The translations under genes were made by a program, and so were the position numbers. Of a stretch of DNA of 47,884 nt, positions 3,557-36,596 are shown one piece after another (positions within the stretch are counted from its first letter, which is position 1; the number at the start of each line of letters is the position of its first letter). Source of the DNA: Escherichia phage ZL19. The stretch lies in sequence record OM258170; one strand, 5' to 3'. The notes under the pieces were generated by a model that made no database searches, was not told where the DNA came from, and was given only the letters and a program-made list of their open reading frames with translations.

Positions 3557-3559
3557 AGG

Positions 3560-4682: not shown

Positions 4683-4712
4683 TACCCAATCAACACAGCG
4701 AGAGATTGAGAA

Positions 4713-5210: not shown

Positions 5211-5239
5211 TTGCATCACTGACCGGAATTACCTAATAT
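5211..5239 (+). promoter_or_regulatory. sigma70-like promoter TTGCAT-17-TAATAT
   Basis: Hexamers with 17-nt spacer upstream of a ~180-nt non-coding stretch and the tRNA. Confidence 0.45.
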
Positions 5240-5422
5240 TGACCACGTAGAAGACAGCCATCCAAGATGGAACGGCGCACGGAGCGCACTACACGGTAAG
5301 TCCGTTGCTCATTAAGTAGCGTATGCGGCACACCCTTACGGGACTTGCAAGACCTAGCGCAAATAGGCAGATTAACCGGCTGTATCAGGCAGCCCCGGAG
5401 CCGTAACCGGGACTCATTCAAA

Positions 5423-5500
5423 GCTCTGCTAGCTCAACAGGATAGCAGCAACGACCTTCTAAGTCGTAGGTTACTGGTTCGAATCCAGTGCGGAGCGCCA
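5423..5500 (+). tRNA. tRNA-Arg (anticodon UCU), CCA encoded
   Basis: 7-bp acceptor stem GCTCTGC/GCGGAGC, anticodon stem ACGAC/GTCGT with loop CTTCTAA, T-arm ACTGG-TTCGAAT-CCAGT, GG in D-loop; D-arm atypical (3-bp stem, long loop). Confidence 0.7.
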
Positions 5501-5514
5501 ATAAAGGAGTCATT

Positions 5515-5697
5515 ATGTGGGATGTGAAGTTGTCCATTCGCTTAATGGGCCGCTCGTGCAAGAATTGCACTCAAGATTACATCGCGTCAGTTGCCGCAAT
5601 CAGCGCTGAGGATGCGGTAGCGAAAGTAAAGGAGTTGTCGGGCGCTGACCCTGATACCCACAAATTCCTGGTAGCTTACGTTCGTGAGCGAAAGTAA
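5515..5697 (+). CDS. hypothetical protein (60 aa)
   Basis: ATG with AAAGGAG RBS just after tRNA; track ORF 5488 starts at GTG inside the tRNA. Confidence 0.4.
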   Translation: MWDVKLSIRLMGRSCKNCTQDYIASVAAISAEDAVAKVKELSGADPDTHKFLVAYVRERK

Positions 5698-5740
5698 AAA
5701 GTGTTATACCCTCGTTAAGTTTCGTTTCTCTCGTTGTTTT

Positions 5741-5764
5741 AGCCCTCGCTTGAGGGCTTTTTTC
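5741..5764 (+). terminator. intrinsic terminator
   Basis: AGCCCTC-GCTT-GAGGGCT hairpin followed by T-run. Confidence 0.65.
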
Positions 5765-5773
5765 GACTGCATG

Positions 5774-5802
5774 TTGACAATAATATGTAGGTGCATTAGT
5801 AT
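5774..5802 (+). promoter_or_regulatory. sigma70-like promoter TTGACA-17-TAGTAT
   Basis: Consensus -35 with 17-nt spacer, 47 nt upstream of ATG 5844. Confidence 0.6.
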
Positions 5803-5843
5803 TAACTCATCGGGGCGACCCACTAACCAGAAGGAGATTCAAA

Positions 5844-6047
5844 ATGATGACATTAAAGGCAGTATACAAAGATGGCAGTGAGCAGATTATAGAAGTTAAA
5901 AGAGTTGGCTACGCTCATGGGTCTAGACTTGTTGACTTCGTTGATTGCGATGGACCCGGCCAGTTCTTCATGGAGGACCGCGTCTTGTCTGTTTATGTGA
6001 TGAATTCAGCCGGCAGCACAGTTGGGAAATACCAACTAGCGGAGTGA
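5844..6047 (+). CDS. hypothetical protein (67 aa)
   Basis: ORF with AAGGAG RBS. Confidence 0.45.
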   Translation: MMTLKAVYKDGSEQIIEVKRVGYAHGSRLVDFVDCDGPGQFFMEDRVLSVYVMNSAGSTVGKYQLAE

Positions 6048-6056
6048 GTTGCCACC

Positions 6057-6081
6057 AAGCCCCTTAATTGGGGCTTTTTTA
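6057..6081 (+). terminator. intrinsic terminator
   Basis: AAGCCCC-TTAATT-GGGGCTT hairpin plus T6. Confidence 0.65.
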
Positions 6082-6125
6082 CGCCTGTAATATGGTATAA
6101 TCTACCATCAACAAAGGAGGATTAA

Positions 6126-6632
6126 ATGAGCAAAGCAGCATTAAAGATGGGTGAGGGAAATTTCAAGGCGCTCTACAACAAGAAGTATGGCGACATTGCT
6201 ATGGTGGCAATCAACCGCAAGTACACGCCTGAGGAAGTTTTTGACTTCGCTGTTCGATACTTCTCTTGGGCAGAGAGTGAGGCAATCAAGGCTATTGAGA
6301 CGGCAGCATTCCAGGGGGTTGTTGGTGAAAGCCTCGTACATAAACCGCGAGTATTCACCTTGACGGGGCTTGCGCTCTTCATGGGTGTTAATATCAATAG
6401 ATTCGCTCGCTGGCGCACTGAGGCTGGATACTCTGATGTTATGGAATTCATTGATAACGTAATCTACGAGCAGAAATACCAACTTGGCGTTGCAGGCATT
6501 ATCAACTCCACCATCGTTGGTAAAGAGCTTGGCATTGATAAGCCACAGGAGATTACCATCAGTAATAACTCTACAGCTAACGACGTTGATAGCATGAAGG
6601 AAGCACTGGAATCTGTGATTGGTAAATTATAA
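6126..6632 (+). CDS. terminase small subunit (putative)
   Basis: Directly upstream of TerL; motifs TLTGLALFMGV and GVAGIINSTIVGKELG resemble small-terminase family. Confidence 0.6.
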   Translation: MSKAALKMGEGNFKALYNKKYGDIAMVAINRKYTPEEVFDFAVRYFSWAESEAIKAIETAAFQGVVGESLVHKPRVFTLTGLALFMGVNINRFARWRTEAGYSDVMEFIDNVIYEQKYQLGVAGIINSTIVGKELGIDKPQEITISNNSTANDVDSMKEALESVIGKL

Positions 6633-6651: not shown

Positions 6652-8217
6652 ATGTCTTTAGTATGGGAAGAAATGACCATTCAGGAAAAGATGGCCGTCA
6701 AGGCGATATCAGAACACAGCTTCGAGGGCTTTCTTCGCTGCTGGTTCCAAATCACACAAGGCGAGCGATACATCCCTAACTGGCACCACAAATATCTATG
6801 CCGAATTATCGACGAGATTATAGCAGGGGAGCGAAAGGACACCATCATCAACATAGCGCCGGGTAGTGGAAAGACGGAAATCGCTTCAATTCACTTTCCG
6901 GCCTACTCTATGGTTAAGTTAAAGAAGGTTCGCAACCTTAACATCTCTTTTGCCGACTCACTGGTTAAGCGCAACTCCAAGCGCGTACGTGACCTCATCA
7001 AGTCTCAAGAATTTCAGTCACTCTGGCCATGTAAGTTTGGCACTTGCAAAGACGATGAGCTTCAGGTTCTTGATGAGAGTGGCAAGGTGAGATTTGAGTC
7101 AATCTCGAAAGCGGCTGGTGGTCAGATTACTGGTGCTCGAGGTGGGTACATAACTGAAACATATAGCGGCGCGGTTTTGCTGGATGATTTTGACAAGCCC
7201 GCCGATATGCTATCAGCAGTGTACCGCTCGAATAATCACGTAATGCTAAAGAACACGATTCGCTCACGTCGCGCTAGCTCTGTAAAAGGAAAGGCGACAC
7301 CAATAATTTCGATACAGCAGCGACTGCACGTCAATGACTCAACGTATTTCATGATGGAAGGCGGTATGGGTATCGACTTTGACTTGATTAAGATACCTGC
7401 GCTAGTTACTGAGGATTACATAGATTCGCTTCCTGACTGGATTAAAGAACAGTTTGCGGAAGACGTATTAAGCAGTGAGTGCATTGAGCGAGATGGCGTA
7501 AAGTACTACAGCTACTTTCCTAAAAAGGAGTCAGTAAACGACCTTGTTGCGATGTGGGATAGTGACCCGTACACTTTCCTTAGTCAATATCAGCAGGAAC
7601 CTGTAGCACTAGGTGGAAACCTCATTAATGTGGATTGGTTCCAGCGAATCAGCGATACTTTCAGACCTCCAGCTAAGTATGACTATAGATTCATCACATG
7701 CGATACCGCGATGACTACAAAGAGTTATAGTGACTTCTCTGTGCTTCAACTGTGGGGATATAAGGATGCTAAGATTTACCTTATAGACCAGCGTCGAGGC
7801 AAATGGGAGGCGCCTGAGTTGGAGGCGGAACTACTGGACTTCGAGAGGAAATCAAGGGCAACCAGTCAGGTAGATGGCATCCTACGAAAAATCATCATCG
7901 AGAAGAAATCATCCGGAATCGGACTTATTCAGTCGGCAGGCAGAGTGATGAGAACGCCGATAGAGCCATACGTACCTGATAACGACAAGCTAACCAGGGT
8001 AATGAGCGCACTGCCACAGATTAAGGCTGGCAATGTAGTTCTTCCAGAATCAGCGCCGTGGTTAAGCGGATTGCTCACGGAGATTGCAGCTTTTACGGCA
8101 GATGATAGCCACAAACACGATGACCAAATTGACTGTCTAACAATGGCAGTAAACCTTGTTCTCAATATCGCAGATGATCCTAAGTCCAGATTAATGCGCA
8201 TAGCGGGAATTAAATAG
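6652..8217 (+). CDS. terminase large subunit
   Basis: 521 aa, Walker A APGSGKT, C-terminal nuclease-like region, position before portal. Confidence 0.85.
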   Translation: MSLVWEEMTIQEKMAVKAISEHSFEGFLRCWFQITQGERYIPNWHHKYLCRIIDEIIAGERKDTIINIAPGSGKTEIASIHFPAYSMVKLKKVRNLNISFADSLVKRNSKRVRDLIKSQEFQSLWPCKFGTCKDDELQVLDESGKVRFESISKAAGGQITGARGGYITETYSGAVLLDDFDKPADMLSAVYRSNNHVMLKNTIRSRRASSVKGKATPIISIQQRLHVNDSTYFMMEGGMGIDFDLIKIPALVTEDYIDSLPDWIKEQFAEDVLSSECIERDGVKYYSYFPKKESVNDLVAMWDSDPYTFLSQYQQEPVALGGNLINVDWFQRISDTFRPPAKYDYRFITCDTAMTTKSYSDFSVLQLWGYKDAKIYLIDQRRGKWEAPELEAELLDFERKSRATSQVDGILRKIIIEKKSSGIGLIQSAGRVMRTPIEPYVPDNDKLTRVMSALPQIKAGNVVLPESAPWLSGLLTEIAAFTADDSHKHDDQIDCLTMAVNLVLNIADDPKSRLMRIAGIK

Positions 8218-17269: not shown

Positions 17270-20245
17270 ATGGCAACAAATGAATTAGCCGGAATCACAC
17301 TAGCCGTAGACGTCTCGCAGGTAGACAGAGGTACACAGTCCCTGCGGAAGTTCAGGCAGGCAAACCAGCAGGCCGCTTCCGGCATTAGTGAGTTCGTCAA
17401 CGCCGAGCAGGTTGCAAAGAATCAAGCCAGAGACACAGCTCGCGCACTGGCTGAACAGCAATCATCTTTGGCTAAATTGCAAACGGCTATTGACCCAACT
17501 GCGGCAAAGTTCCGTAAACTCCAGGAGGCTGCTGTAGGTCTTGATAAGGCTTTCGCGGCTGGAGTAGTTCCTGATGAGGAGTTTTTCCGCTTAGGTGAGG
17601 CGCTTGAAACGCAGAACGCAAAACTTGCTCGTTCACGTGCGGCACTAACTGAAGAGGGTAGAGCGGCGGCGCAAGCTGCAAAGGATAAGGCAAAGGCAAA
17701 GGCTGAAGCGGATAGATTCATTGCATCACTTGAGCGTCAGGCTCAGGCGGCAACATTGACGCGAGAGGAGTACCTAAAGTTACAAGCGGCCCAGCTTGGC
17801 GTAAGTTCTCAGGCGGCGCCTATTATTGACAGAATCGCCGATGTATCACGGAAGGCAAACACCCAGCTAATTGCTCAGAGCAAGGCCTTTCAACGCTCTG
17901 GCTTAAGCGCAGGTCAATACAAGGCTGCAATCTCTCAATTGCCAGCGCAGATTACAGATATTGGGACATCACTTGCTGGCGGCATTCCGATTTGGCTTAT
18001 TGCAATTCAGCAAGGTGGACAAATTAAGGATGCATTTGGAGGTATTGGTAACACATTTAGTTTTGCGCTTGCTGCTTTAAACCCGTTCAACGTAGCAGTT
18101 GGGGTTCTCGGTGGCGCGCTTGTTGCTTTAGGCGTCGGTGCTGCGCAGGCTGAAAGTGAATTCAGGGCGTTAAACTCCGCCATTGCGTTCTCAAACAACT
18201 CCACAATCGCATCAATCTCGCAGGTTAGAGAGTTGGTTAGCTCTGTTTCTGATGCCACTGGTGCAACCAGAGGACTTGTGACTAGCATCGCAACAAGCCT
18301 TGTTGAGCAAGGAAACCTTACGCTAACGCAGATTGACAAGATTACTAAATCAACAGCCAGATGGGCTCAGTTGACAGGTAAGGATGCAAAGGAAATTACT
18401 GGTTACTATAACCAGATTGCGAGCGACCCAATTCAAGGACTTGCTGATTTAGACAAGAGGTTTAACTTCCTTACACAGGGGCAGTTAACAACAATTGAAA
18501 GATTGAGGGAGACTAGGGGTGAGGTTGAAGCCGTAACTGCTGCTATTGATATATTTAGCAAATCACAAGAGGCAAACCTTAACGATATTGCAGCCCAGCT
18601 TACTCCTCTTGAATTGGCCTGGAATGACTTCAGGAAGTACATATCTGATGTATGGGATGCAATTAGTCGCAGAACGGTTGGGGCGCTAAACCTGTTTGTT
18701 GACGTAATCGCCGGAACAATTGAGCAAATTAGGGTCTTCATCAACCAGGGTGATGTGCTGATTGGTGAATTCGTAATTAGCGCAACACAGGCACTGCAGA
18801 ACATCCCCGGCCTTGATGGTGTTGGTGATGATGTTGTCAAGGGACAGCAGAAGATTATCGATGCCGCTAAGAAGCAAAACATTGAGCTAGAGAAGTCTAT
18901 CAAGGAGCGCGATGCCAGAATCAGAGAAGGAGAACTTGGCTACGTTACTCGCAGAGAAAATCAGAATACCAATGAGCAGTCAGGCACGGATGAGGAGTTT
19001 GCAAAAAGGAAGAAAGCGCTTCAGGATGAACTTGATGCGATCAAGAAGAGCAGGAAAGAAGAAAATGGTAGGGTTAAAGAGCAAAGAGACCTTACAATTG
19101 GTTACGAATCTGGCGTACTTGCACTACAGGCACAACTCAAGGTGCTTCAGGAAAACAGGGATATTGGCGCAGTAATAAGCAATGAGCGCAAGCAGTATCT
19201 TCAGGAGGTTGCAAAATTCCAGATTCTTGAGCAAAGGCAGCGTGATGGCTCAATAAAAAAAGAGCAAGCAAGACTTCTCATTGAAAAGGATAAAGTTCTT
19301 GAGTTGGCCAGGCAGAAGGCTGAGCTAGGTGATCAGATTGTTTTGCAAGAAAGAGCCAATAAGTTGGCTGAAGATAACCGCAAGAAGATTCTTCAGATTA
19401 ACAATGAGGCAAGCAATATTGATTTGGGTACTGGATTATCATCTCGTGAACTGCAAAGAGCCAAAGAGATTCAGGCTCTTCAGTCCAATCAGGTCAATGC
19501 TGGTGGCTCTCTTGATGACGTTGATTTTCAGCAGCTACTGGAAGCAAGACGTAACTTTTATGCCCAGGAGGATGCGCTACGTGAAAACTGGCTCGCTGGT
19601 GTGAATCAATCCTTTGCCAATTGGGCTGAGAGCGCGACGGATGCATTCTCAATTGCTGGAAGTTTAACCACAACAGTCTTTGAAGGCATTACCGACCAGA
19701 TTACAAACCTCGTAACAACTGGCGAAACAAACTTCAGAGAGTTTACTGTTAGCATCCTTAAACAGATTGCTAAGATTGCAACCCAACTTCTTATTGTTAA
19801 GGCTATAGAGTCTAGCTTAAGTAGCTTCGGTGGTACTGGTGGCGCTATTGGTTCAATTTCTTCAGGTCTTGGTTTCGCTGGCGGCGGCTACACTGGTAAT
19901 GGCGGGAAATACCAACCAGCAGGTACTGTACATAAGGGTGAGTTTGTATTCACAAAAGAAGCGACTAGCAGAATTGGTGTTAAGAACCTTTACGCACTAA
20001 TGAAGGGATACGCAAACGGTGGCGCTGTAGGTGGTCCATCTGGTTATGCTAATGGTGGCTATGTTTCCGGCGGCTCGGATATTAATGTTAGTGGCATCAC
20101 TGTTAACGTTAATGGTGGCGTTGGTAGCGACCCAGAACAAGCTAAGGCGCTGCAAAGCGGAGTCAGGGCTATCGTAGCAGAGGAGATTGCTCAGTCCTTC
20201 CAGCAGGGCGGAAAAGCTTATCAGTACCTTCGCGGATTCAACTAA
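17270..20245 (+). CDS. tail tape measure protein
   Basis: 991 aa, Ala/Gln-rich coiled-coil with Gly-rich C-terminus, GGAGG RBS. Confidence 0.85.
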
Positions 20246-21445: not shown

Positions 21446-21943
21446 TTACCATCCAAGAGTTAACTGTGCTTCCTTGTAAAGGTTCTCCATTTCTTCTTTC
21501 CGCTGCTTCTTGACCCTCTTCCACTCAGATAGTGTCTTTCCGCAACTGCTAGCAATCTCAACCTCTGACTTTAACGTTCCGATTAACTCATTGCATTTCT
21601 GCATTACTGATTTATTTTCTTCTTTATACTCCTCTTTAAGAATTCGCTCCATTTCGTTAAAAGCATTAATGTAAGCTTCCTTCCACTTTGCTGCCTCCTT
21701 TCCGGTAAAGCCCATTGCTAGGAATGAGAAACCATCACGTGTAATGTCATAGCAATCTAACTTCTTGTTTTGCTTGGAAATATAAGATGAGGGCCGAAAA
21801 TTAGGCTCTCTAAATTCTTCGCTACAATCAAGTCCTCGAATAGCATCAAGCACGTGCTTGTGCGACTTACCAAACTTTTCTGAAACATCCTTTGATGTGA
21901 CTGTAATGCGACCATCTTTGCCTAAAGATACTAAATCGTTCAT
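21446..21943 (-). CDS. Rha-family phage regulatory protein
   Basis: N-terminal ITVTSKDVSEKFGKSHKHVLDAIRGL matches Rha domain pattern; track ORF trimmed to ATG with AGGTAGG RBS. Confidence 0.6.
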   Translation of the reverse strand: MNDLVSLGKDGRITVTSKDVSEKFGKSHKHVLDAIRGLDCSEEFREPNFRPSSYISKQNKKLDCYDITRDGFSFLAMGFTGKEAAKWKEAYINAFNEMERILKEEYKEENKSVMQKCNELIGTLKSEVEIASSCGKTLSEWKRVKKQRKEEMENLYKEAQLTLGW

Positions 21944-22039
21944 AATATACCTACCTGGTGAGTTGATTATTTGTTTATGGAGATTCAAATATAAAACTCC
22001 TAATAGGATTTGTCAAATCTTAAAATCATAGAGGTGAAG

Positions 22040-27336: not shown

Positions 27337-27708
27337 ATGGCTGGTTTGTATGGTTGGGAGATGTACGATTCTGCGGGGCGGCTTGTAGCTGACAATAGCA
27401 GCATAATGAGCAGGAGGCTATTCACTTATAGCGTGCCACTGATAAGGGCTTTATCTGCAAACATACCATGGGAAGTCTCATTTAATGTTAACTTCTCAAA
27501 TGGAACGCCTTATGCGCATTGCAATACCAGAACAGGGGTGGTGGTCCCTGCATCTACTAACTGGTATCCAGTATCACCTGATATAATAATATCTGGAAAT
27601 GCAGTTACACTCAGGTATACAAACAGGCATGTTTCCTATCCGGACGATCTTGGGTACATACTTGCAGTTGGTGGTGTTGATGTTCACTTAGGAGTTTATA
27701 ATAAATGA
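27337..27708 (+). CDS. hypothetical protein, paralog of next gene (tail/host-range associated?)
   Basis: N-terminus YGWEMYDSAGRLVAD resembles N-terminus of ORF 27705. Confidence 0.4.
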   Translation: MAGLYGWEMYDSAGRLVADNSSIMSRRLFTYSVPLIRALSANIPWEVSFNVNFSNGTPYAHCNTRTGVVVPASTNWYPVSPDIIISGNAVTLRYTNRHVSYPDDLGYILAVGGVDVHLGVYNK

Positions 27709-28502
27709 GTGATTATGGTGTTGAACTAATAAATGACTATGGTTTAAAGGTTGCTGACGCAGAGGATGTAAATTACGTACTAAGAAGTTCTGGTACATTT
27801 AATGATTCAAATTTCTACTCATATGCAAACTCCACATCTGCAATTAGCCTCATGACCACAGGAATGAATTCGCCTCTTCTATTTCTAAAGATGAACGAAA
27901 GTAGGTCAAGGATAAGCCAGAAGCCTGGAGTTAACAAAATATCACCTGATTTTGTTAACCCAAATACCACAATAACAAAGACAAGCATAGACCTATTCAA
28001 GTGGTGGAACATACCGCTAGGAACTGTAGAGTATTACATATTTGACAAGTGGATCCCGCCAGAAAGAAGTGATTATGGAATGCAGATATTTAATGAATCT
28101 GGTTCTATAATCTTTGATTCTGGCTGGTACTTCCTCAAACTTAGGGATGTGCTATGGCTTGATCCAAGTTATCCAAACCATTCAGATCAGGAAGGTGGTA
28201 GTAACTGGACTAACGTCGGGAATATTGTCAACTCCGCGAACGTATCAAACTCAGCATTATCAATGCCTGTTGGTAGGGGGTGGGTTGAAACATCATTGCA
28301 GGGTGGGTACTACTATAATGAATGCTGTCACCTTGACTCATCCGGTAATCTATTTATATCCATAATACCTACAGGTATATACCTTGATGTTTCACCAACT
28401 GGCGGCTGGGTTGGCAATATGAGGACGCAAGTTATGGTTTGCGACACCTCGAGGCTGCCTCTTAATTACAATCCAGTTGAGATAAGAAAGGAAAACAAAT
28501 AA
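27705..28502 (+). CDS. hypothetical Asn/Ser-rich protein with repeated DYG motif
   Basis: ATGA overlap with upstream paralog; two DYG-x-x-x-x-N-x-x-G segments. Confidence 0.4.
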   Translation: MSDYGVELINDYGLKVADAEDVNYVLRSSGTFNDSNFYSYANSTSAISLMTTGMNSPLLFLKMNESRSRISQKPGVNKISPDFVNPNTTITKTSIDLFKWWNIPLGTVEYYIFDKWIPPERSDYGMQIFNESGSIIFDSGWYFLKLRDVLWLDPSYPNHSDQEGGSNWTNVGNIVNSANVSNSALSMPVGRGWVETSLQGGYYYNECCHLDSSGNLFISIIPTGIYLDVSPTGGWVGNMRTQVMVCDTSRLPLNYNPVEIRKENK

Positions 28503-28504
28503 AA

Positions 28505-28528
28505 ATAAGGCCCTTAATGGGCCTTCTT
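28505..28528. terminator. bidirectional terminator
   Basis: AGGCCC-TTAAT-GGGCCT hairpin between convergent genes. Confidence 0.5.
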
Positions 28529-28699
28529 GTTAAAACAATATCCAGCTGGTAAAACCGAATAAAGATTTTGATTTACCTCTCCATTGCTGTATTCACAACC
28601 TCTAATTGTAACTGAGTAGTCACTGATAAGAACTATAGTTCTTTCACCGCCTGAACAACCAGCTAAAATCATTGCAGTGATAACGATTAATTTTTTCAT
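28514..28699 (-). CDS. small lipoprotein (Cor/Llp-like superinfection-exclusion candidate)
   Basis: Signal peptide with lipobox LAGC, 61 aa, located beside tail fibre genes. Confidence 0.45.
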   Translation of the reverse strand: MKKLIVITAMILAGCSGGERTIVLISDYSVTIRGCEYSNGEVNQNLYSVLPAGYCFNKKAH

Positions 28700-28700
28700 C

Positions 28701-28805
28701 TTAGAACCCTTTAAAGTTGCTAGCCAGCATCAGAAGCCATACGAAGAAACCAGTAGCTGCTACACCGAAGATTGCAGAGATTACGTTAGTAGTTAAGTTA
28801 GTCAT
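28701..28805 (-). CDS. small hydrophobic membrane peptide (34 aa)
   Basis: ATG with AAGGA RBS; stop abuts lipoprotein start; single predicted TM; below track cutoff. Confidence 0.35.
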   Translation of the reverse strand: MTNLTTNVISAIFGVAATGFFVWLLMLASNFKGF

Positions 28806-28826
28806 TTTGTATTCCTTAGTAAGTGT

Positions 28827-28866
28827 GTTTCGTTTCGATGGAAAGATAATACCGCATCCTTGCGAT
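28827..28866 (-). repeat. 40-bp perfect repeat (promoter -10 plus leader), copy A
   Basis: Identical to 46447-46486. Confidence 0.8.
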
Positions 28867-28888
28867 AAGTGTTTAGCAATTAGTGCTA
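28846..28888 (-). promoter_or_regulatory. palindrome-type promoter module (minus strand)
   Basis: Motif TAGCACTAATTGCTA on minus strand, -10 TATTAT 37 bp downstream, leader CCATCGAAACGAAAC. Confidence 0.5.
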
Positions 28889-29158
28889 TTAGTGAATATC
28901 CTCACAGCCAGGAATGGACTTAACATTGTAATGCCGATAAGCGAATATCAAGTTAAGAGCCTGCTCGACCGTGCATTTAAGGGCGCCAGAGATAATAAAT
29001 GAAGACTCAGTGATGTGATTTATTAACTCATTTCTGACAGGGTCGTCATCTGCTAGTAACTCTGCGCGCTTAACAAAAAGAGCGTTGTTTACCAGGATTG
29101 TCACAACCTTTTCATTGAGCTCTTTCTTCGCTTTTGCAATCTCTTTCTCGTAGTTCAT
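28889..29158 (-). CDS. hypothetical protein (89 aa)
   Basis: ORF with AAGGCGG RBS. Confidence 0.4.
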   Translation of the reverse strand: MNYEKEIAKAKKELNEKVVTILVNNALFVKRAELLADDDPVRNELINHITESSFIISGALKCTVEQALNLIFAYRHYNVKSIPGCEDIH

Positions 29159-29300
29159 CTTATACCGCCTTGTTTTCGATTTGCATTACGCTATTAACTG
29201 ACATCATAACATTCCGATTCTGCTGCTGAGTAGTGGTTACTACATGCTGCATTTTATTGCAGTCACTTTAAATGACCACATCTTATTGTGGTCATTAGTG

Positions 29301-29948
29301 CTACTTATCTTTAAGTAGCAACTTGATATCAATTCCTAGATTATTCTCAATCAATCCAGTCAGTGCACCTACCTTTTCCTTAAGCGCGAAGCATTGCGAT
29401 TCATACTTAAATCTTTCCTCCATCTCATCAGAACGACTAACCCAACACTGGCGAGCCTCACAAGCCAACATGTCGAGTTTTTCATCGGTATTCTTATCCA
29501 TGAGTAAGATCTCATTTATCCTTTGCTCTGCAACAATGCGCTGACTCAGGTGTGCATTTTGCGCATTAGCCACACCAAGCATCATGCGCGCTTCTTTTAA
29601 CTCATCAATGCTTACCATCTTACTGATTACTTCTTCTTGTTTTTTGACTAACGCCTCAAGTTCATGAAGTCGACGGATAACCCTGTGACGAAGAACGACG
29701 CTATAGCCAGTTATTAGCGTTTCTGTAAGTTCCTTGTTAAGTAAAATCTCTGATGTATAGCCGCGATTGTCCGTAAGTACTTGATAATCATCATGACCCA
29801 AATCTGGGGCATCGTTATAATGTAACAATTCATTGATCATTTCCTTTGTGTCGCGAACGACGTGATCATGACGCTTACCTGTCAATTCAGCAATTTCCTT
29901 CGTGCTCATCATGGTTTTTGGCTGTTCTTTGTACGCCTCAATGTTCAT
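29301..29948 (-). CDS. Rha-family regulatory protein with coiled-coil C-terminus
   Basis: MSTKEIAELTGKRHDHVVRDTKEMI matches Rha pattern; track ORF trimmed to ATG with AAGAGAGA RBS. Confidence 0.55.
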   Translation of the reverse strand: MNIEAYKEQPKTMMSTKEIAELTGKRHDHVVRDTKEMINELLHYNDAPDLGHDDYQVLTDNRGYTSEILLNKELTETLITGYSVVLRHRVIRRLHELEALVKKQEEVISKMVSIDELKEARMMLGVANAQNAHLSQRIVAEQRINEILLMDKNTDEKLDMLACEARQCWVSRSDEMEERFKYESQCFALKEKVGALTGLIENNLGIDIKLLLKDK

Positions 29949-30052
29949 TTTAGTCTCTCTTATGTTTTTCATGTCTCAGATTTTAGCCATCGTTTGGTTT
30001 TGGTCTATCGATTTTCGGTAGACCAAGCAGCACCATTGCCGCCATGCGCCTA

Positions 30053-30095
30053 AATATACCCAAAGATAGCTAGTTGTCTTTAGCAATTGGTGCTA
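30053..30095 (-). promoter_or_regulatory. palindrome-type promoter module (minus strand) for Rha gene
   Basis: Motif TAGCACCAATTGCTA on minus strand, -10 TATATT at 30053-30058. Confidence 0.5.
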
Positions 30096-30122
30096 TTTAT
30101 CGCCAATTCCACCATAAATCAC

Positions 30123-30215
30123 AGTTACACGTAACCGATGTAACTCGATGTATACAATCTCATCCGCGGAAAATGATATACGCACTGTTACGCCAATTTA
30201 CGCATTAGTTACATT
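30123..30215. repeat. GTTAC(A/G)C iteron-like repeats including palindrome GTTACACGTAAC
   Basis: Several GTTACGC/TTTACGC/GTTACAT copies in non-coding DNA. Confidence 0.5.
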
Positions 30216-30220
30216 AAAAT

Positions 30221-30270
30221 ATCTATATATATCAACCTTTTACTCTTATTATTATTATTATATATATTAC
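30221..30270. repeat. (TA)n and (ATT)n microsatellite, AT-rich
   Basis: ATCTATATATAT and 5x ATT then TATATAT. Confidence 0.8.
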
Positions 30271-30409
30271 TGTGTATATCATGTAACTACTTCTATAGAG
30301 TGTTTCGGTTATAATTTTAATATAATGTGGATTTATACAGTATTGCGTGGCAGCTATACCAATGCACCCCGCAAGGAATGGTATACACGATATACACACT
30401 GGTTACATT

Positions 30410-30434
30410 GAGCTATAGCTGGGCTGAGATGCCA
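30410..30434. repeat. conserved 25-bp box with AGCTATAGCT palindrome (copy 2)
   Basis: GAGCTATAGCTGGGCTGAGATGCCA, 24/25 identical to 285-309. Confidence 0.8.
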
Positions 30435-30514
30435 AAAAACGTAACTAGCGGCAATACCTACACGGAATTACAAAGATTCACGCGTAAGTCTGAATCAACG
30501 ATTGGCAAAACCAA

Positions 30515-30544
30515 TTGGACTGGCTACGGTGCCGAATATATAGT
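30515..30544 (+). promoter_or_regulatory. sigma70-like promoter TTGGAC-18-TATAGT
   Basis: Followed by TACCACATCGAAAG leader and RBS of gene 30582. Confidence 0.5.
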
Positions 30545-30581
30545 TACCACATCGAAAGCAAACAACCAGAGAGATAAATAA

Positions 30582-30776
30582 ATGACCTACTACATTATCA
30601 AAGAGAAAAACAACGCACTGTTCGGTGATTGCTACTTTGGTGGGCCGGCCGGATACACCACAGATAAGAGTGAAGCTGACAGATTCGAAACTAAAGAAGA
30701 AGCCCGAGATGTGCTGACCGGTTACTTCACTGAAGAAGATTTGAAGTCTGTTAAAGTAGTTAAGGTTAAGGAATAA
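30582..30776 (+). CDS. hypothetical protein (64 aa)
   Basis: ORF with GAGAGA RBS, first gene of recombination module. Confidence 0.45.
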   Translation: MTYYIIKEKNNALFGDCYFGGPAGYTTDKSEADRFETKEEARDVLTGYFTEEDLKSVKVVKVKE

Positions 30777-30779
30777 ATT

Positions 30780-31745
30780 ATGGGCTTTAAAGTTTACACA
30801 CGAGAAGAGCTATCAAACTGGGAGTACCACGCCGAAACTGAACACATCTCAGGTAGCTCGCTTGTTGAGATTATCCAGGGATCCCCAGCTAAATGGAAGT
30901 TCAAGCAGCGCAATAATGACAGCAAGGCGCTTAAATTCGGAACGCTTAGTCACACGTACATCCTGGAAGGTGACATGTTTGATAAAGAATACCTTCGAGC
31001 TACAGACCTTGACGCGATTGAAGGATTAATTACAAGCCAGACCGGATTATCGGCAGCGCTGAAAAAAGTTGGCGTGGCTGGCACGTCAGGGAAGGGCTAT
31101 AGCGAGCTCGTAGAGATGATGTATCGCTCTGGTGAGGATTGGCCTATTGAATGGCTAATTGAGCAGCAGGAGAGCGCCAGGGCGCTTGTGGAGGGTAAGG
31201 AGCTAGTTAGCGCAGCAGACTACGACAAGGTGGTGGCGATGCGTGAGGTTCTTTGCAACATCCCGGCGTATGATGCAATTGTGAATAGCGAAACGGCGCA
31301 GAAGGAGTTATCAATCTTTGGTGAGATTCTCGGTGTTGGAGTTAAGATTCGAATAGACCACGTTGATGTTGTTGATGGTGCGGTTAAGATCACAGATTTT
31401 AAAACGACCGCCGACGCAAGCCCGGAAGGATTCGGAAAGTCTGCATTCAATCACGGATACCTTGCAAAAATGTCGCTTCAGCGCGATCTGTTTGTGAAGG
31501 CATTCAACGAGAAGCGCAAGGTTGTTGTAGGATTGCTGGCGCAGGAGAAGGTGGAGCCATACTTACCAATGCTGTACACCCTAACTGACGAACAGCTACG
31601 AATCGGCCGTCTTCAGTATCTTGAGGCGCTGGCTACTTATAAGAAGTGCAAGGAGCTAGATATCTGGCCTGGATATTCGAATGGAATTACAGAGCAAGAG
31701 CTAATGATTCCTGAGTGGGCATTAAAACAATACAAAGAAATCTAA
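30780..31745 (+). CDS. PD-(D/E)xK recombination exonuclease (putative)
   Basis: IDHVDVVDGAVKITDFKT D..D-x-K motif; adjacent to ERF and SSB. Confidence 0.6.
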   Translation: MGFKVYTREELSNWEYHAETEHISGSSLVEIIQGSPAKWKFKQRNNDSKALKFGTLSHTYILEGDMFDKEYLRATDLDAIEGLITSQTGLSAALKKVGVAGTSGKGYSELVEMMYRSGEDWPIEWLIEQQESARALVEGKELVSAADYDKVVAMREVLCNIPAYDAIVNSETAQKELSIFGEILGVGVKIRIDHVDVVDGAVKITDFKTTADASPEGFGKSAFNHGYLAKMSLQRDLFVKAFNEKRKVVVGLLAQEKVEPYLPMLYTLTDEQLRIGRLQYLEALATYKKCKELDIWPGYSNGITEQELMIPEWALKQYKEI

Positions 31746-32512: not shown

Positions 32513-32932
32513 ATGCACGTAATTACTGGTCAGATTCGCAAAGCACCATTCACCAAAGAAGGCAGCAACAACAACGGACGTTGGAAAATGTACGCAGTAG
32601 AACTTTCTGAACGAATGAAGATTCGAAATCAGAATGGCGAGGATGAGACTGTTTACAGTAACTACCGCGCTACGTTCTTCGCAAAGGAAAATGTCATGGC
32701 ATGGTATGACGAAGCGTTCCAGGAAGGTAAGGTGGTCTCTATTTCGTCAGATACGTTACACATTACGGCGCGTGATCATAACGGAACTACATACACAACA
32801 GCGGAGCTTATCCGCCCTCAGTTGCAATTCAGCCAGCGCGAGCCAGCACAACAGCAGCCTCAGCAACAACAGCAGCAACCTCAGCGGTCACCGCAGCAGC
32901 AAAAACAATTCGATGACGACATTCCATTCTAA
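32513..32932 (+). CDS. ssb: single-stranded DNA-binding protein
   Basis: C-terminal acidic tail DDDIPF after Gln/Pro-rich linker. Confidence 0.75.
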   Translation: MHVITGQIRKAPFTKEGSNNNGRWKMYAVELSERMKIRNQNGEDETVYSNYRATFFAKENVMAWYDEAFQEGKVVSISSDTLHITARDHNGTTYTTAELIRPQLQFSQREPAQQQPQQQQQQPQRSPQQQKQFDDDIPF

Positions 32933-32944
32933 TGATAAAACTAA

Positions 32945-32970
32945 CCCCGCCTCCGCGGGGTTTTTGTTTT
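32945..32970. terminator. bidirectional terminator
   Basis: CCCCGC-CTCC-GCGGGG hairpin plus T-run, between convergent SSB and tailspike genes. Confidence 0.65.
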
Positions 32971-35533
32971 ATATTGGATAATTAGATACCTTGATGTCAG
33001 AAAAAATTGTTGTTCCGGTAAGCGCAGAATCAGCGTCAGATGCAGCTGCCGGAGCTAAAAGTATTTCAACCGCAGCACAATTCGCATTAGTCACTGCATA
33101 TATAAGAGACTTCAATTCCCATGACGAGTTAGGAACTAAAGGTCTGTAAGTATTAACCAGTGCAGCTCCAGATGAATCAAGTTCTCTGAATATCACAGAG
33201 GCGACACTCGAACTACCACGTAGAACATACAAATCAAGATAAACCCAACCTTTTGTCGACGCAAGAATTGTAGCAACACTAAGAGACTGAATGCTGGCCC
33301 TATTTTCGTCGCCCAATGTAAACGCATATCCGGTTCCCAGGGGCCACGAAGCGCTATCGGTTTTTTTTGGAGCAGTGCTTGTGACATTTTTTAACAGTCT
33401 GTCGTAATTTAAGTAATTTGGTTTTACTACAGAGTATGGTTTGTTCCCATGGTATGTTATTGAACTGCTAGATACCTTTGTTTTACCGTTATTATTATTG
33501 ACAACGCCTGATAATGTTACATTGTGGCCTGTATCGACATTGAGGTCATAGGAGTTGTCGTACGACATAGCGGAACCTTGCGTGTTATCGGTAGGTACTA
33601 TCTCAGCGAGCGTAGTACCGTCTATTCTACCGCGAACCAGTTCCCATGACACCGCCGCGCCGTTGCAAAACTTAGCCCACACACCATCAACAGTGCAATG
33701 TGATGTATTTGCTAACCTAATGGCACTGTTGTTAACTCGTTCAATACTCGCTGAAAGGATATTTATATAGAGACTTTGATGGTAATTAGTTTCGCTTGGA
33801 TACTTATAATCCGTCACGAAAAGACCTGCTTGACCTGCCCGTGAAGCAGGTGACGCACTGTATCGGAAGCCCTCAATTGTTATATGCTCTCCCTGTACTT
33901 CCAGGTAGTTCTTTGTGGTCTGGGATGCCCCCGTCTGTACACCTTCGTTTGAAGAAGTGAATACCCCATAGCTAGAACCATCAGTACTATGGTGGCAGTC
34001 ATTCATATCGTATGTTTGACACCCATCAATAATCCAATGCTCACAACCACGCTTAAGATCTGCCAGGGTTCGGTGGCCATTGGCCGTACTATTACGACAT
34101 ACAATATTTTTAATTGTGTACGTTCCGTAAGGCCCTGGCGCGTCAATAGTTCCATTCATGCATTTGAATGCGTTGAATCCAATCGCAGTAACTGTTGGGT
34201 CTGTACCCTCAGACGAGCAGTTAATATAGCGTATACCGTCAATCTTCCCACCACCTGTGGTATAGCCTTCCCACGCCTCATGAGGGCAATTTTTAAAGTG
34301 ACAACCGTTAGCCTCTATATCACGGATAATATTACCGACACCGTCACTGTGCCAGCAAAAAGCGCGAATCAGGTTTTCGGATGGAGTTGAATACCCACCC
34401 TGATACTGACCGTCAAATCCGATATTCTCCAGGCGCGCGAAGGTTAGCCCCGTGGCTGGGTTCTTTCTGGAAAACCAGGCATACACACTACCATAGTTAC
34501 CAGAATACGCAGCACCTAATGCAGTTCTCGTCAGGGTTAATGGTTTGATTGTAGTGTTGAACCTTCCGTTGGATTTCCAGTGGAAAAAATCTCCAACTCT
34601 GACCATGCCAGAGAAAACAACCTCTTCAATGCCACTAAAATCTATTGGTAAGCGAAGTGACTCTGATAGATCCTGTATCTCTTGGATTATAGAAGAACAA
34701 TCAACCCCGCTAACAACACCGTATAGTTTTGCTGAAATCACGCCAGAAGAGGATGCGAAATTCCCTATGTGTAACGCTCCTTTTTCAGATGCAAGCTCAC
34801 TTCTCAAAGCAGCATCGCCAACACTAACCCACGCCCCTAATTCAATCCCACCAGTGCTATCTGGGGTTGAACCACCTGGAAACATCTTTGGCAATGATCC
34901 AGTCCATATATAAGACTTAACATCGCTTCCATTGACGTATAAAACCTGCTGATTTTTAGACTCTAGCGTTCCTCCATCTGAGAAGTTTAAAGTTAATGAC
35001 CCAGACACAGAATTTGCCGCTGCCTCTGCTCTATCGGCGGCAGATGATGCATTGGTAGCGTTAATTTGTGATGATGATACATCATTTGAAACCTGTGTTG
35101 CATCACTTGAAACCTGCGCACCAATAGAAACAACATCACCATGCTGAGTGTTTACCTGAGCTACCTTCGATTCAAAATCCGCAGAGTCAAAGTTGTTAAA
35201 AGCATCAACGGCATCTGCAACTTCTGTTTCTCGAGACTGATAATATCGAAGCGTTTCAGCAACATCCTGAGCCAAACCCTGAACGGTAATCCCATCGTGT
35301 GCAAGAATCGCGTAACCAGTTCCGGCAGGAACAGTTTCAGAATTAGGATTATAAACATTAACCTGAGTGTCGCTGATAATTTCTGAGATAGTGTAAATCT
35401 GTACTGGTTCAGTTTTGAAAACAATGGTAGCACCAATGCGAATCAGTGTAAGCGGCGCTTTCCATGTCGTTCCTACGCCAGTTACCTCGCCATTCGCGGC
35501 TAGCGATGCTGTTCCTAAGTCATAAATTGCCAT
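32969..35533 (-). CDS. tail fibre / tailspike protein (depolymerase-type, putative)
   Basis: ~854 aa from ATG 35533 (GGAGA RBS); Gly/Asn/Ser-rich central region; track ORF starts at upstream GTG. Confidence 0.65.
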   Translation of the reverse strand: MAIYDLGTASLAANGEVTGVGTTWKAPLTLIRIGATIVFKTEPVQIYTISEIISDTQVNVYNPNSETVPAGTGYAILAHDGITVQGLAQDVAETLRYYQSRETEVADAVDAFNNFDSADFESKVAQVNTQHGDVVSIGAQVSSDATQVSNDVSSSQINATNASSAADRAEAAANSVSGSLTLNFSDGGTLESKNQQVLYVNGSDVKSYIWTGSLPKMFPGGSTPDSTGGIELGAWVSVGDAALRSELASEKGALHIGNFASSSGVISAKLYGVVSGVDCSSIIQEIQDLSESLRLPIDFSGIEEVVFSGMVRVGDFFHWKSNGRFNTTIKPLTLTRTALGAAYSGNYGSVYAWFSRKNPATGLTFARLENIGFDGQYQGGYSTPSENLIRAFCWHSDGVGNIIRDIEANGCHFKNCPHEAWEGYTTGGGKIDGIRYINCSSEGTDPTVTAIGFNAFKCMNGTIDAPGPYGTYTIKNIVCRNSTANGHRTLADLKRGCEHWIIDGCQTYDMNDCHHSTDGSSYGVFTSSNEGVQTGASQTTKNYLEVQGEHITIEGFRYSASPASRAGQAGLFVTDYKYPSETNYHQSLYINILSASIERVNNSAIRLANTSHCTVDGVWAKFCNGAAVSWELVRGRIDGTTLAEIVPTDNTQGSAMSYDNSYDLNVDTGHNVTLSGVVNNNNGKTKVSSSSITYHGNKPYSVVKPNYLNYDRLLKNVTSTAPKKTDSASWPLGTGYAFTLGDENRASIQSLSVATILASTKGWVYLDLYVLRGSSSVASVIFRELDSSGAALVNTYRPLVPNSSWELKSLIYAVTNANCAAVEILLAPAAASDADSALTGTTIFSDIKVSNYPI

Positions 35534-35557
35534 TGTGTAAAGTCTCCATATGTAAAA

Positions 35558-35602
35558 TAGCACGAATTGCTAAAGTGGATTGTAGCATCTTTCAGGTATA
35601 AA
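35558..35602 (+). promoter_or_regulatory. palindrome-type module in plus orientation, function ambiguous
   Basis: TAGCACGAATTGCTA 35558-35572 with TATAAA at 35597-35602; no plus-strand gene downstream; 25 nt upstream of tailspike ATG on minus strand. Confidence 0.35.
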
Positions 35603-35623
35603 AAAAACCTCCCGAAGGAGGTT
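35598..35623 (-). terminator. intrinsic terminator of primase gene
   Basis: AACCTCC-CGAA-GGAGGTT hairpin followed by T8 on minus strand. Confidence 0.65.
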
Positions 35624-36596
35624 AGCTGTTCAATAAATCACTTGCCTTATATATCTTCTTCCTGATTCCGCTCTTGAATGAGTATTCATCATTTGGTATT
35701 ACCACATCAAGATTCCTCTCATCAGCAACGCAAAGCAATTCCCTATCAAGATAGCAAGCAACTCTTAACTTGAAATCTTTGAGTGCGTAAGCAACCATCT
35801 CCATGTTGTAGCTAGAGTGGCAAACAAGTACACATCGGTTGCCAGTAGCAAGATGAACACGAATACCATCAATCCAATTATCCACAAGATAAGCGTACTC
35901 ATCACTTTTAAAGGAACCAATAACAGCAACTGACTGGCGTGTGTAATATTTTGCAGCATAACTAACACCTCCCTCCTCGTTAATAAACATTACATTGCAC
36001 ATTTCTTCTGATATACCGTCACTATAAACCATAAAGCACGGTATTGCGTGTATTATTTCACCGGATTTTGTCCTGCCAACATCAAAACCAAACTCGCTAT
36101 AGATACCCTCGTATGTACTGAGCGGGGTTGATTCTACTCTTTCAGTCCTCTCCATTATCTCTAAGCATCTCTCGTGGTCAATTTGAGCGCCCATTTTGTA
36201 GAGCTTGGTTCTTGATGCTTGCTTGTTTGCCTTGTTAACAACCTCAACAGGGATAAGGCTTAACCACCCACCGAGAACATCGATACATTCACTAAATGAC
36301 TCACCTCGCATTTTCTGGACCCAAACAACACCATCTCCTGAACCGCATTGGTTGCAGATAATTCCACCATCACCATCTTCGCTAACCTTATTAGTCCATC
36401 TTGCGCGATCGTTGCCGCCGCAATAAATGCACGGCTGATGCTTTTTGGTCTGGAAAAACTTAGGGTCAGCGCCGCAGATGTTGATAAGTGCTTTATCCCA
36501 CAGGCCGCGCATTCTTGGTATAACTTCTTTCTTATCGTAGTGCATATCAATCTGTCTCTTAACAAATAAAAAAAGGATGTACCGATTATGGCACAT
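35622..36596 (-). CDS. DNA primase (zinc-ribbon + TOPRIM-like)
   Basis: CIYCGG...CNQCGSGDG zinc-ribbon motif; start could be M18 at 36545. Confidence 0.55.
   Translation of the reverse strand: MCHNRYILFLFVKRQIDMHYDKKEVIPRMRGLWDKALINICGADPKFFQTKKHQPCIYCGGNDRARWTNKVSEDGDGGIICNQCGSGDGVVWVQKMRGESFSECIDVLGGWLSLIPVEVVNKANKQASRTKLYKMGAQIDHERCLEIMERTERVESTPLSTYEGIYSEFGFDVGRTKSGEIIHAIPCFMVYSDGISEEMCNVMFINEEGGVSYAAKYYTRQSVAVIGSFKSDEYAYLVDNWIDGIRVHLATGNRCVLVCHSSYNMEMVAYALKDFKLRVACYLDRELLCVADERNLDVVIPNDEYSFKSGIRKKIYKASDLLNS

What the first reader, a model, noticed from the sequence alone, without database searches (positions are those of the whole stretch)
32969..35533. Tailspike on the opposite strand, embedded among recombination and replication genes
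The only large structural gene on the minus strand sits far from the tail block, between SSB and primase. It has a probable conserved N-terminal anchor and a long Gly/Asn/Ser-rich region typical of beta-helix depolymerase tailspikes. Its isolation by bidirectional terminators suggests a swappable host-range cassette.
Basis: inference. Interest (0 to 1): 0.5.

Follow-up and report, generated by a model that had tools for sequence, protein, structure and literature searches.

The report
T1-like phage lateral tailspike gene
This is the side tailspike of a T1/Rtp-like coliphage: its unusual position, shared N-terminal anchor and swappable beta-helix sugar-recognition module are already documented for this phage family, so the finding is correct but ordinary, apart from an uncharacterised C-terminal module.

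Summary
The 854-aa ORF at 32969-35533 (-) is real. The window is a Drexlerviridae (Rtp-like) coliphage, 98.8% identical to phage TR3 across the 5-kb region around the gene. The gene sits in the family's lateral-tail-fibre slot between SSB and primase, on the opposite strand. This layout was described for Rtp rtp50 and by the BASEL study.

The swappable-cassette idea is right, but its boundaries are not the two terminators. Backbone identity stops inside the gene at aa ~134-150. From aa ~215 through the stop codon and the 3' hairpin, the DNA is 87% identical to the gp17-slot gene of a T7-like podophage. Only the 3' hairpin has terminator features on both strands.

The C-module family is small (67 clusters among 1.84 billion representatives) and has no characterised or solved sequence relative. 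Adjacent acyltransferase genes in two prophages suggest an O-antigen target. Enzyme chemistry, trimer state and virion presence remain untested.

The parts
32969..35533 (-). Lateral tailspike gene, 854 aa plus stop. Ortholog by position of Rtp rtp50, T1 gp26 and BASEL 'lateral tail fiber protein'.
   Evidence: ORF list. 98.9% aa identity to TR3 WVX92959. Same slot annotated as tail fiber/tail spike in Rtp, SU57, JulesPiccard and ETEP102.
35132..35533 (-). N-terminal anchor module (aa 1-~134), conserved across Drexlerviridae. Its C-terminal part continues into an alpha-helical stalk (aa ~89-176, window 35006-35269).
   Evidence: PHROG tail-fibre families hit aa 1-190. PDB 7vyv/7vz3/7lzj hit aa 1-178, E 1e-34. 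tblastn gives 44-82% identity over aa 1-~130 in T1-like phages and 37.5% to the phi80 side tail fibre. DNA identity to four relatives ends at window 35082-35130. The helices come from DSSP of a low-confidence part of the model.
34814..35002 (-). Tail_spike_N (PF18668) small beta domain, aa 178-240. It connects the stalk to the enzymatic body.
   Evidence: Pfam E 7e-17. Matches CBA120 TSP3/TSP1/TSP4 N-domains. pLDDT 75-86.
33404..34648 (-). Right-handed parallel beta-helix, aa ~296-710, preceded by neck and cap helices (aa 241-293).
33791..34129 (-). Candidate active-site or binding groove on three consecutive stretches (aa 469-581). Family-wide conserved residues: Y469, R488, D492, K494, R495, D512, S516, D518, N542, E545, Q547, E549, E581.
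   Evidence: Conserved in 31-38 of 38 family members down to 20% identity. The most conserved block is D509-G519, which lies mostly in the turn after strand 506-508. A catalytic role is inferred.
32972..33376 (-). C-terminal beta-sandwich domain, aa ~720-854. It is in the position where Depo32 carries its carbohydrate-binding module.
   Evidence: DSSP shows all-beta structure with pLDDT >90. Depo32 domain layout from PMC10581125. The function is inferred by analogy.
32935..34891 (-). Horizontally exchanged unit: codons ~215-854, the stop codon and the 3' hairpin.
   Evidence: 87% nt identity to the gp17-slot gene of a T7-like podophage contig (L008) from gene nt 643 to ~60 nt past the stop. 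Backbone similarity to Drexlerviridae resumes at 32939.
32943..32962 (.). Convergent intrinsic-terminator hairpin shared by the SSB (+) and tailspike (-) transcripts, with terminator features on both strands.
   Evidence: Found on both strands by the scan. dG -17.6 (+) and -16.1 (-) kcal/mol, z -4.7 and -4.0. Its sequence differs from the GCCCCTTTCGGGGC hairpin of relatives and matches the T7-like locus.
35598..35623 (-). One-way intrinsic terminator (7-bp stem, UUCG loop, U8) that ends the regulator-primase transcript just upstream of the tailspike gene.
   Evidence: Scan. dG -10.5 kcal/mol; no U-tract on the + strand. Stem conserved and loop variable in five phages. Annotated as a terminator in SU57 and ETEP102.
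35579..35587 (-). Putative extended -10 promoter TGCTACAAT dedicated to the tailspike gene. RBS GGAG at 35544-35547.
   Evidence: Conserved in TR3, JulesPiccard, Rtp and SU57 (TGCTATACT in ETEP102) between the terminator and the RBS. Promoter function is inferred. The simple -35/-10 scan did not call it.

Best explanation
The gene encodes the lateral (side) tailspike of a T1/Rtp-like siphophage.

**How it most likely works**
- It is transcribed as its own unit, starting from a conserved extended -10 promoter just after the primase terminator. Transcription ends at a hairpin shared with the convergent SSB gene.
- The protein probably forms a homotrimer.
- The family-conserved N-terminal ~130 aa dock it to the tail.
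- An alpha-helical stalk and a PF18668 connector domain carry a right-handed beta-helix followed by a beta-sandwich.
- The beta-helix groove binds, and probably cleaves, a surface polysaccharide. The groove is lined by Y469, R488, D492, K494, R495, D512, S516, D518, N542, E545 and Q547.
- The target is most likely an O-antigen of a smooth enterobacterial host. Cleaving it would let the phage reach the outer-membrane protein receptor used by the gpJ tip.
- On rough laboratory strains the spike should be dispensable.

**Host-range change**
The module from about codon 140-215 to just past the 3' terminator is replaced by recombination, while the anchor, promoter and 5' terminator stay with the backbone.

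**Shown here:** gene, synteny, anchor homology, fold, mosaic breakpoints, hairpins.
**Inferred:** trimer, virion attachment, enzymatic cleavage, O-antigen target, promoter activity.
For: **Synteny and annotation in relatives**
-. Rtp's own note on rtp50 reads 'putative tail fiber with beta-helix fold; similarity to T1 gp26 limited to N-terminal region'.
- BASEL S1C Fig describes conserved recombination and primase flanks, with only the 5' end of the lateral-fibre gene conserved (PMC8594841).

**Anchor**
-.

**Fold**
- AF2 pLDDT >90 for most of aa 270-854.
- BFVD top hits are the phiKP26, Rtp and Jk06 tail fibres.
- The domain order parallels Depo32.

**Module exchange**
- The same C-module sits behind Drexlerviridae, T7-type (PF03906), P22 head-binding (PF09008), P2-type (PF12571) and other N-termini.
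- It sits in the same slot of another Drexlerviridae contig.
- It sits in the gp17 slot of T7-like phages.
- Breakpoints.

**O-antigen lead**
- An Acyl_transf_3 gene lies directly next to the tailspike in a P22-like prophage (followed by integrase) and in an E. coli chromosome prophage. By established knowledge this is the Sf6 oac-type serotype-conversion layout.

**Conserved charged groove residues**
-.

**Transcription signals**
-.
Against: - No experiment or characterised close homologue exists for the C-module. A profile search of PDB sequences hits only the PF18668 part, and Pfam finds no catalytic family.
- The N-terminal 179 aa of the model is low-confidence, and only a monomer was modelled.
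- The virion proteomics I could read for T1-like phages detected the 124-kDa gpJ-type fibre, not this protein (PMC4070988).
- BASEL states that the lateral-fibre role in Drexlerviridae 'has never been directly demonstrated'.
- TR-series phages with papers (TR1, TR2) were isolated as contaminants of E. coli fermentations, so the spike's natural target host is unknown.
Confidence: 0.8

Rival explanations
1. The spike is a polysaccharide lyase (beta-eliminase, AlgE/AlgG/K5-lyase-like chemistry) that acts on a uronic-acid-containing capsule or O-antigen, rather than a glycoside hydrolase.
For: - Conserved Tyr, Arg and Lys residues (Y469, R488, K494, R495) accompany the carboxylates.
- H514 and H515 are present in about 75% of members.
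Against: - There is no sequence-level alignment to AlgE4. hhalign probability is 0.1%. The local HMM search gives P ~0.005 over a non-catalytic stretch only, and shuffled sequences reach higher scores.
- The by-eye match of NCPHE (aa 415-419) to AlgE4 FDPHE is not conserved in the family.
- An abundance of conserved Asp and Glu is equally typical of O-antigen endoglycosidases (established knowledge for the P22, Sf6 and HK620 tailspikes).
Confidence: 0.25
2. The beta-helix only binds its glycan and does not cleave it, so the protein is a lateral adhesin fibre.
For: - No catalytic Pfam or PDB sequence family is detected.
- The completed BASEL study found that many O-antigen-dependent phages use non-enzymatic fibres (PMC11990801).
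Against: - Twelve charged or polar residues are conserved on consecutive rungs down to 20% identity. This is more typical of an active site than of a binding surface that tracks variable glycans.
- Most structural neighbours are enzymes.
- Relatives with the same N-terminal anchor (Depo32, DpK2) are proven depolymerases.
Confidence: 0.15
3. The target is a capsule or other exopolysaccharide (K-antigen, colanic acid, an Enterobacter capsule) rather than an O-antigen.
For: - The solved proteins that share the N-terminal anchor are Klebsiella capsule depolymerases.
- Structural neighbours include the K5, K1 and K2 capsule enzymes.
- The cultured phage relatives of the module infect Enterobacter.
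Against: - Two independent temperate carriers pair the module with an Acyl_transf_3 gene, one of them followed by an integrase. This layout is classically linked to O-antigen acetylation (Sf6 Oac, established knowledge). It is suggestive, not proof.
- BASEL attributes Drexlerviridae lateral fibres in E. coli to O-antigen recognition.
Confidence: 0.25
4. The protein is not a virion part but a soluble enzyme expressed from the replication region and released at lysis.
For: - The gene lies among early/middle genes, far from the tail block, with its own promoter-like element.
- It was not among the seven virion proteins identified in related phages.
Against: - A conserved N-terminal anchor shared by more than a thousand T1-like phage records and by the phi80 side tail fibre would have no purpose in a soluble enzyme.
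- The same C-module occupies true tail-fibre slots (T7 gp17, P22 tailspike) in other phages.
Confidence: 0.05

Closest known systems
Lateral tail fibre/tailspike of Drexlerviridae (Rtp rtp50, T1 gp26, BASEL Bas01-13 'lateral tail fiber protein', SU57_00050 'tail spike protein')
   Same: - Same slot (SSB -> gene on the opposite strand <- primase).
- Same N-terminal ~130 aa.
- Same flanking terminators and upstream TGCTACAAT element.
- Beta-helix body already noted for rtp50.
- Only the 5' end is conserved between phages.
   Different: The C-terminal ~640-700 aa is a different allele. Among 50,697 phage records it occurs only in TR3 (98.6%) and, at 44%, in two Enterobacter podophages.
Klebsiella Webervirus capsule depolymerases Depo32 (7VYV/7VZ3) and DpK2 (7LZJ)
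   Same: - Homologous N-terminal anchor plus helical region (aa 1-178, E 1e-34).
- Same overall order: anchor, helical bundle, connector, beta-helix, beta-sandwich.
   Different: - No sequence similarity beyond aa ~180.
- Their K2-capsule specificity and mapped catalytic Asp/Glu residues cannot be transferred.
- Depo32 has an extra C-terminal domain.
CBA120 tailspikes TSP1-4 and other PF18668-bearing tailspikes
   Same: - The Tail_spike_N domain (aa 178-240) is followed by a beta-helix.
- They are the top Foldseek hits.
   Different: - They belong to myophages with branched multi-spike assemblies.
- Their beta-helix bodies show no detectable sequence similarity to this one (10-16% identity in the fold-search alignments).
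AlgE4 mannuronan C-5 epimerase A-module (2PYG) and related alginate epimerase/lyases
   Different: - 12% identity and no significant profile alignment.
- The catalytic Y149/D152/H154/D178 motif (PMC7385640) is not recognisably present or conserved.
- AlgE4 is not a phage protein, and no R-modules are seen in this tailspike's domain layout.
Modular tailspikes of P22, Sf6 and T7-like phages (shared receptor module behind lineage-specific adaptors)
   Same: The same C-module is found behind P22 head-binding and T7 gp17 N-termini. In prophages it lies next to an acyltransferase and an integrase, as in Sf6.
   Different: Here the adaptor is the siphophage T1-type anchor, and the gene is displaced from the structural block.

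Membership tests
Drexlerviridae lateral tail fibre/tailspike locus | Gene on the opposite strand between the recombination genes/SSB and the primase | tested here: met
   for the window. Identical layout in TR3, JulesPiccard, Rtp, SU57, ETEP102 and a metagenomic relative.
Drexlerviridae lateral tail fibre/tailspike locus | Conserved N-terminal anchor (~120-130 aa) with an unrelated remainder | tested here: met
   tblastn gives 44-82% identity limited to aa 1-~130-156 in T1-like phages. DNA identity to relatives stops at window 35082-35130.
Drexlerviridae lateral tail fibre/tailspike locus | Protein is part of the virion, attached laterally to the tail | not testable with these tools
   Inferred only from anchor homology. 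The proteomics paper read did not list this protein, and BASEL calls the role undemonstrated.
Right-handed beta-helix tailspike depolymerases (pectin-lyase-like fold) | Right-handed parallel beta-helix body | tested here: met
Right-handed beta-helix tailspike depolymerases (pectin-lyase-like fold) | Homotrimeric assembly | not tested
   Only a monomer was modelled. Trimer is inferred from homologues (Depo32, DpK2 and the CBA120 TSPs are trimers).
Right-handed beta-helix tailspike depolymerases (pectin-lyase-like fold) | Glycan-cleaving active site (acidic pair or lyase base) in the groove | tested here: inconclusive
   D492, D512, D518, E545 and E581, plus R488, K494, R495 and Y469, are conserved in 35-38 of 38 sequences. 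Their spatial arrangement and activity could not be examined.
PF18668 Tail_spike_N-containing tailspikes | Pfam Tail_spike_N above the gathering score | tested here: met
   61.7 bits against a cut-off of 25, at aa 178-240.
AlgE/AlgG-type mannuronan C-5 epimerase/lyase | Catalytic YG(F/I)DPH(D/E) motif plus Asp178 | tested here: not met
   No significant alignment. The only look-alike, NCPHE (aa 415-419), is not conserved across the family: C in 7, P in 10 and H in 14 of 38 sequences.
AlgE/AlgG-type mannuronan C-5 epimerase/lyase | Beta-helix geometry of the A-module | tested here: met

The most novel reading that the evidence does not exclude
The C-terminal module (aa ~250-854) founds a small, entirely uncharacterised tailspike enzyme family. 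It has 67 clusters among 1.84 billion representative proteins, no solved or named sequence relative, and an AlgE4-like beta-helix. Its invariant constellation is Y469 / R488-D492-K494-R495 / D512-S516-D518 / N542-E545-Q547. The family could have a glycan specificity, or a lyase/epimerase-like chemistry, not yet described for O-antigen-directed spikes. It has moved recently (87% nt identity) between a siphophage and a T7-like podophage, carrying its transcription terminator with it.
Probability: 0.25. Interest if true: 0.4.

Novelty: new member of a known kind. Interest (0 to 1): 0.15.

Why it matters
The architecture itself is textbook for T1-like phages, so it changes nothing conceptually. 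Three practical points follow.

1. GenBank's nearest record (TR3) leaves this gene as 'hypothetical protein'. It can now be annotated as the lateral tailspike.
2. The mapped junctions give ready-made seams for engineering host range in T1-like phages. These are the anchor/stalk boundary at aa ~134-150, the PF18668 domain at aa ~215, and the end just past the 3' terminator.
3. The receptor module is a rare, unstudied beta-helix family. Its substrate, probably an O-antigen of an Escherichia or Enterobacter serotype, could be found with simple spot assays.

Tried and rejected
- **Longer GTG start at 35563.** Rejected. The RBS, the homologues and the TR3 annotation all support the ATG at 35533.
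- **Sequence link between the beta-helix and a solved enzyme.**
  - phmmer and a 42-sequence profile against the PDB hit only the N-terminal parts.
  - Pfam finds no catalytic family.
  - hhalign against AlgE4 gives probability 0.1%.
  - A local hmmsearch against AlgE4 is marginal and not over catalytic residues.
- **By-eye equivalences to AlgE4.** I considered NCPHE 415-419 ~ FDPHE and NDCH 511-514 ~ NDRH 193-196. The first fails family-wide conservation. The second could not be tested without coordinates.
- **Inferring the target serotype from E. coli genomes.** Only 1 of 5,426 complete genomes carries even a distant relative, and no serotype information was available.
- **A paper on phage TR3.** None found. 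Only TR1 and TR2, both fermentation contaminants, have papers.
- **Direct virion evidence in the literature.** The proteomics of four T1-like O157 phages lists the 124-kDa gpJ-type fibre, not the lateral spike.
- **The idea that the two terminators delimit the mobile cassette.** Rejected from the breakpoint mapping.
- **The N-terminal 179 aa of the AF2 model.** Unusable (pLDDT <50), because few rows of the alignment share this N-terminus.
Full report
**1. Observation**

The ORF list shows a minus-strand ORF at 32969..35563. This start is correct for three reasons:
- GGAG lies 10 nt upstream.
- The near-identical TR3 gene is annotated from the same ATG.
- Homologues begin MAIY/MALY.

The gene is flanked by an SSB (32513-32932, +) and a primase (35622-36596, -). 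The gpJ central fibre ends at 27295.

The other minus-strand ORFs of at least 150 aa are these:
- 18433-18903, which lies inside the 17270-20245 (+) ORF and was not scanned;
- a Rha-like regulator;
- an anti-repressor;
- the primase;
- a transcriptional regulator;
- a helicase.

So 'only large structural gene on the minus strand' holds. G+N+S is 27.0% here, against 14-22% in 12 other large ORFs.

**2. Which genome, and is the arrangement known?**

The 5-kb region around the gene is 98.8% identical to Escherichia phage TR3 (Drexlerviridae, Braunvirinae). About a hundred other T1/Rtp-like phages match only the flanks.

In Rtp, SU57, JulesPiccard, ETEP102 and others, the same slot holds a gene annotated as tail fiber, tail spike or lateral tail fiber.
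- Rtp's record says of rtp50: 'putative tail fiber with beta-helix fold; sequence similarity to gp26 of phage T1 limited to N-terminal region'.
- The BASEL paper (PMC8594841, S1C Fig) describes this locus. [quoted passage not shown]
- SU57 and ETEP102 annotate terminators on both sides of the gene.

TR3 itself labels the gene 'hypothetical protein'.

**3. Anatomy of the protein**

*Sequence evidence*
- PHROG tail-fibre families cover aa 1-190.
- Pfam Tail_spike_N (PF18668) covers aa 178-240.
- PDB sequences of the Klebsiella Webervirus depolymerases Depo32 and DpK2 match aa 1-178 at E 1e-34. CBA120-type spikes match aa ~146-300.
- tblastn over 50,697 phage records shows the N-terminal ~115-156 aa in Escherichia, Klebsiella, Shigella and Citrobacter T1-like phages at 44-82% identity. 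It is also in the phi80 side tail fibre at 37.5%.

*Structure evidence*
- An AlphaFold2 model from a 42-sequence alignment is confident for aa ~180-854 (pLDDT mostly >90). It is unreliable for aa 1-179.
- The model shows helices at aa 89-176, a small beta domain at 181-240, neck and cap helices, beta-helix rungs at ~296-710, and a beta-sandwich at ~720-854.
- Foldseek against the PDB returns CBA120 TSP4/3/1/2, K2-2 TSP, Depo32, DpK2, phi92 gp150 and the Sf6 spike, all at probability 1.0.
- BFVD's best hits are the phiKP26, Rtp and Jk06 tail fibres.

The domain order parallels that published for Depo32 (PMC10581125).

**4. The swappable unit**

Homologues of aa 250-854 carry different N-termini:
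- the Drexlerviridae anchor;
- the T7 tail-fibre N-domain (PF03906);
- the P22 head-binding domain (PF09008);
- a P2-type fibre N-domain (PF12571).

Context look-ups place the module as follows:
- in the same primase/SSB slot of another Drexlerviridae contig (61% identity);
- in the gp17 slot of a T7-like contig (92% aa identity);
- in the gp17 slot of an Enterobacter Kayfunavirus (44%);
- in the tailspike slot of a P22-like prophage.

Breakpoints were mapped with blastn.
- Identity to JulesPiccard, Rtp, SU57 and ETEP102 runs from the primase through the intergenic region into the gene. It stops at window 35082-35130 (aa ~134-150) and resumes at 32939, the end of the SSB region.
- Identity to the T7-like locus (87% nt) starts at gene nt 643 (aa ~215, window 34891). 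It continues through the stop codon and the 3' hairpin.
- That hairpin differs from the GCCCCTTTCGGGGC hairpin of the other Drexlerviridae and resembles the one in the podophage.

So the exchanged unit is 'most of the gene plus its 3' terminator', not the whole gene between two terminators.

**5. Transcription signals**
- The 3' hairpin (32943-32962) folds at -17.6 kcal/mol on + and -16.1 kcal/mol on -, with T-rich tails on both strands. It is terminator-like in both directions, between the two convergent genes.
- The 5' hairpin (35606-35623) has a U8 tail only on the minus strand, so it is a one-way terminator after the primase.
- In five phages its stem is conserved while the loop varies.
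- It is followed by a conserved TGCTACAAT (TGCTATACT in ETEP102), which has the form of an extended -10 promoter, and then by the RBS.
- That the spike is an independent transcription unit is an inference from these elements.

**6. What the body probably does**

The C-module family is small.
- 41 proteins were found in the word-indexed search.
- 67 representative clusters were found among 1.84 billion proteins in the exhaustive search. All carry the module at the C-terminus of 600-900-aa proteins.
- Among cultured phages it is found only in TR3 and two Enterobacter podophages.
- It is found in 1 of 5,426 complete E. coli genomes.

In an alignment reaching 20% identity, these residues are conserved in 35-38 of 38 sequences: Y469, R488, D492, K494, R495, D512, S516, D518, N542, E545, Q547 and E581. 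E549 is conserved in 31 of 38. Most of them lie in three stretches about one helix turn apart (aa 488-496, 509-519, 541-549). The D509-G519 block lies mostly in the turn after strand 506-508. This pattern suggests an active-site groove.

Whether the chemistry is hydrolytic or eliminative is open.
- The fold neighbours lean towards epimerases and lyases.
- The AlgE catalytic motif (Y149/D152/H154/D178; PMC7385640) could not be aligned.
- The look-alike NCPHE is not conserved across the family.

In both temperate carriers examined, an Acyl_transf_3 gene lies immediately next to the spike, once followed by an integrase. By established knowledge this is the Sf6-type serotype-conversion layout, so it points to an O-antigen target. 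This is a lead, not proof.

**7. Verdict**

It is wrong on the cassette boundaries and on both terminators being bidirectional.

The arrangement is already described for T1/Rtp-like phages. The only new element is an uncharacterised allele of the receptor module. Enzymatic activity, trimer state, virion presence, target glycan and promoter activity remain inferred. Interest is low.

Noticed in passing
window 21446-21988 (-) and 29301-29972 (-): A Rha-like regulator ORF sits on the opposite strand inside the tail-gene block. An anti-repressor-like ORF follows the gpJ/RBP region. Both are unexpected in a phage family regarded as virulent. They may be mobile or morons.
   Followed up: no
L001 (TR3, PP069512) 3968-6532 and 3512-3931: The closest GenBank record labels both the tailspike (98.9% identical) and the SSB as 'hypothetical protein'. 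This is an annotation gap, not a biological difference.
   Followed up: yes
L011 8799-9857 (-) and L012 7397-8563 (-): Both prophages that carry the same C-terminal module have an Acyl_transf_3 acyltransferase gene directly after the tailspike, on the opposite strand. In L012 an integrase follows. This is an Sf6-like serotype-conversion layout and suggests an O-antigen target.
   Followed up: partly
window 35579-35623 (-): In five phages the terminator stem AACCTCC/GGAGGTT upstream of the spike is conserved while its loop varies (TTCG, CACG, CTCG, TACG). A TGCTACAAT extended -10-like element follows at a fixed distance.
   Followed up: partly
window 32943-32962 versus L008 ~7485-7510: The 3' terminator hairpin of the spike resembles the one after the gp17-slot gene of a T7-like podophage. 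It does not resemble the hairpin of other Drexlerviridae, so the terminator appears to have been transferred together with the receptor module.
   Followed up: yes
window 27705-28502 (+): A 265-aa ORF just downstream of the gpJ homologue matches only a PHROG of unknown function. According to BASEL this position holds the terminal receptor-binding protein of small siphophages.
   Followed up: no
window 32513-32932 (+): The SSB has a glutamine-rich tract (QQQPQQQQQQPQRSPQQQ) just before its acidic DDDIPF tail.
   Followed up: no
window 28001-31000: This is the lowest-GC part of the window (0.40). It has a sharp negative GC and AT skew at 29001-30000, which coincides with the strand switch after the tail block.
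   Followed up: no
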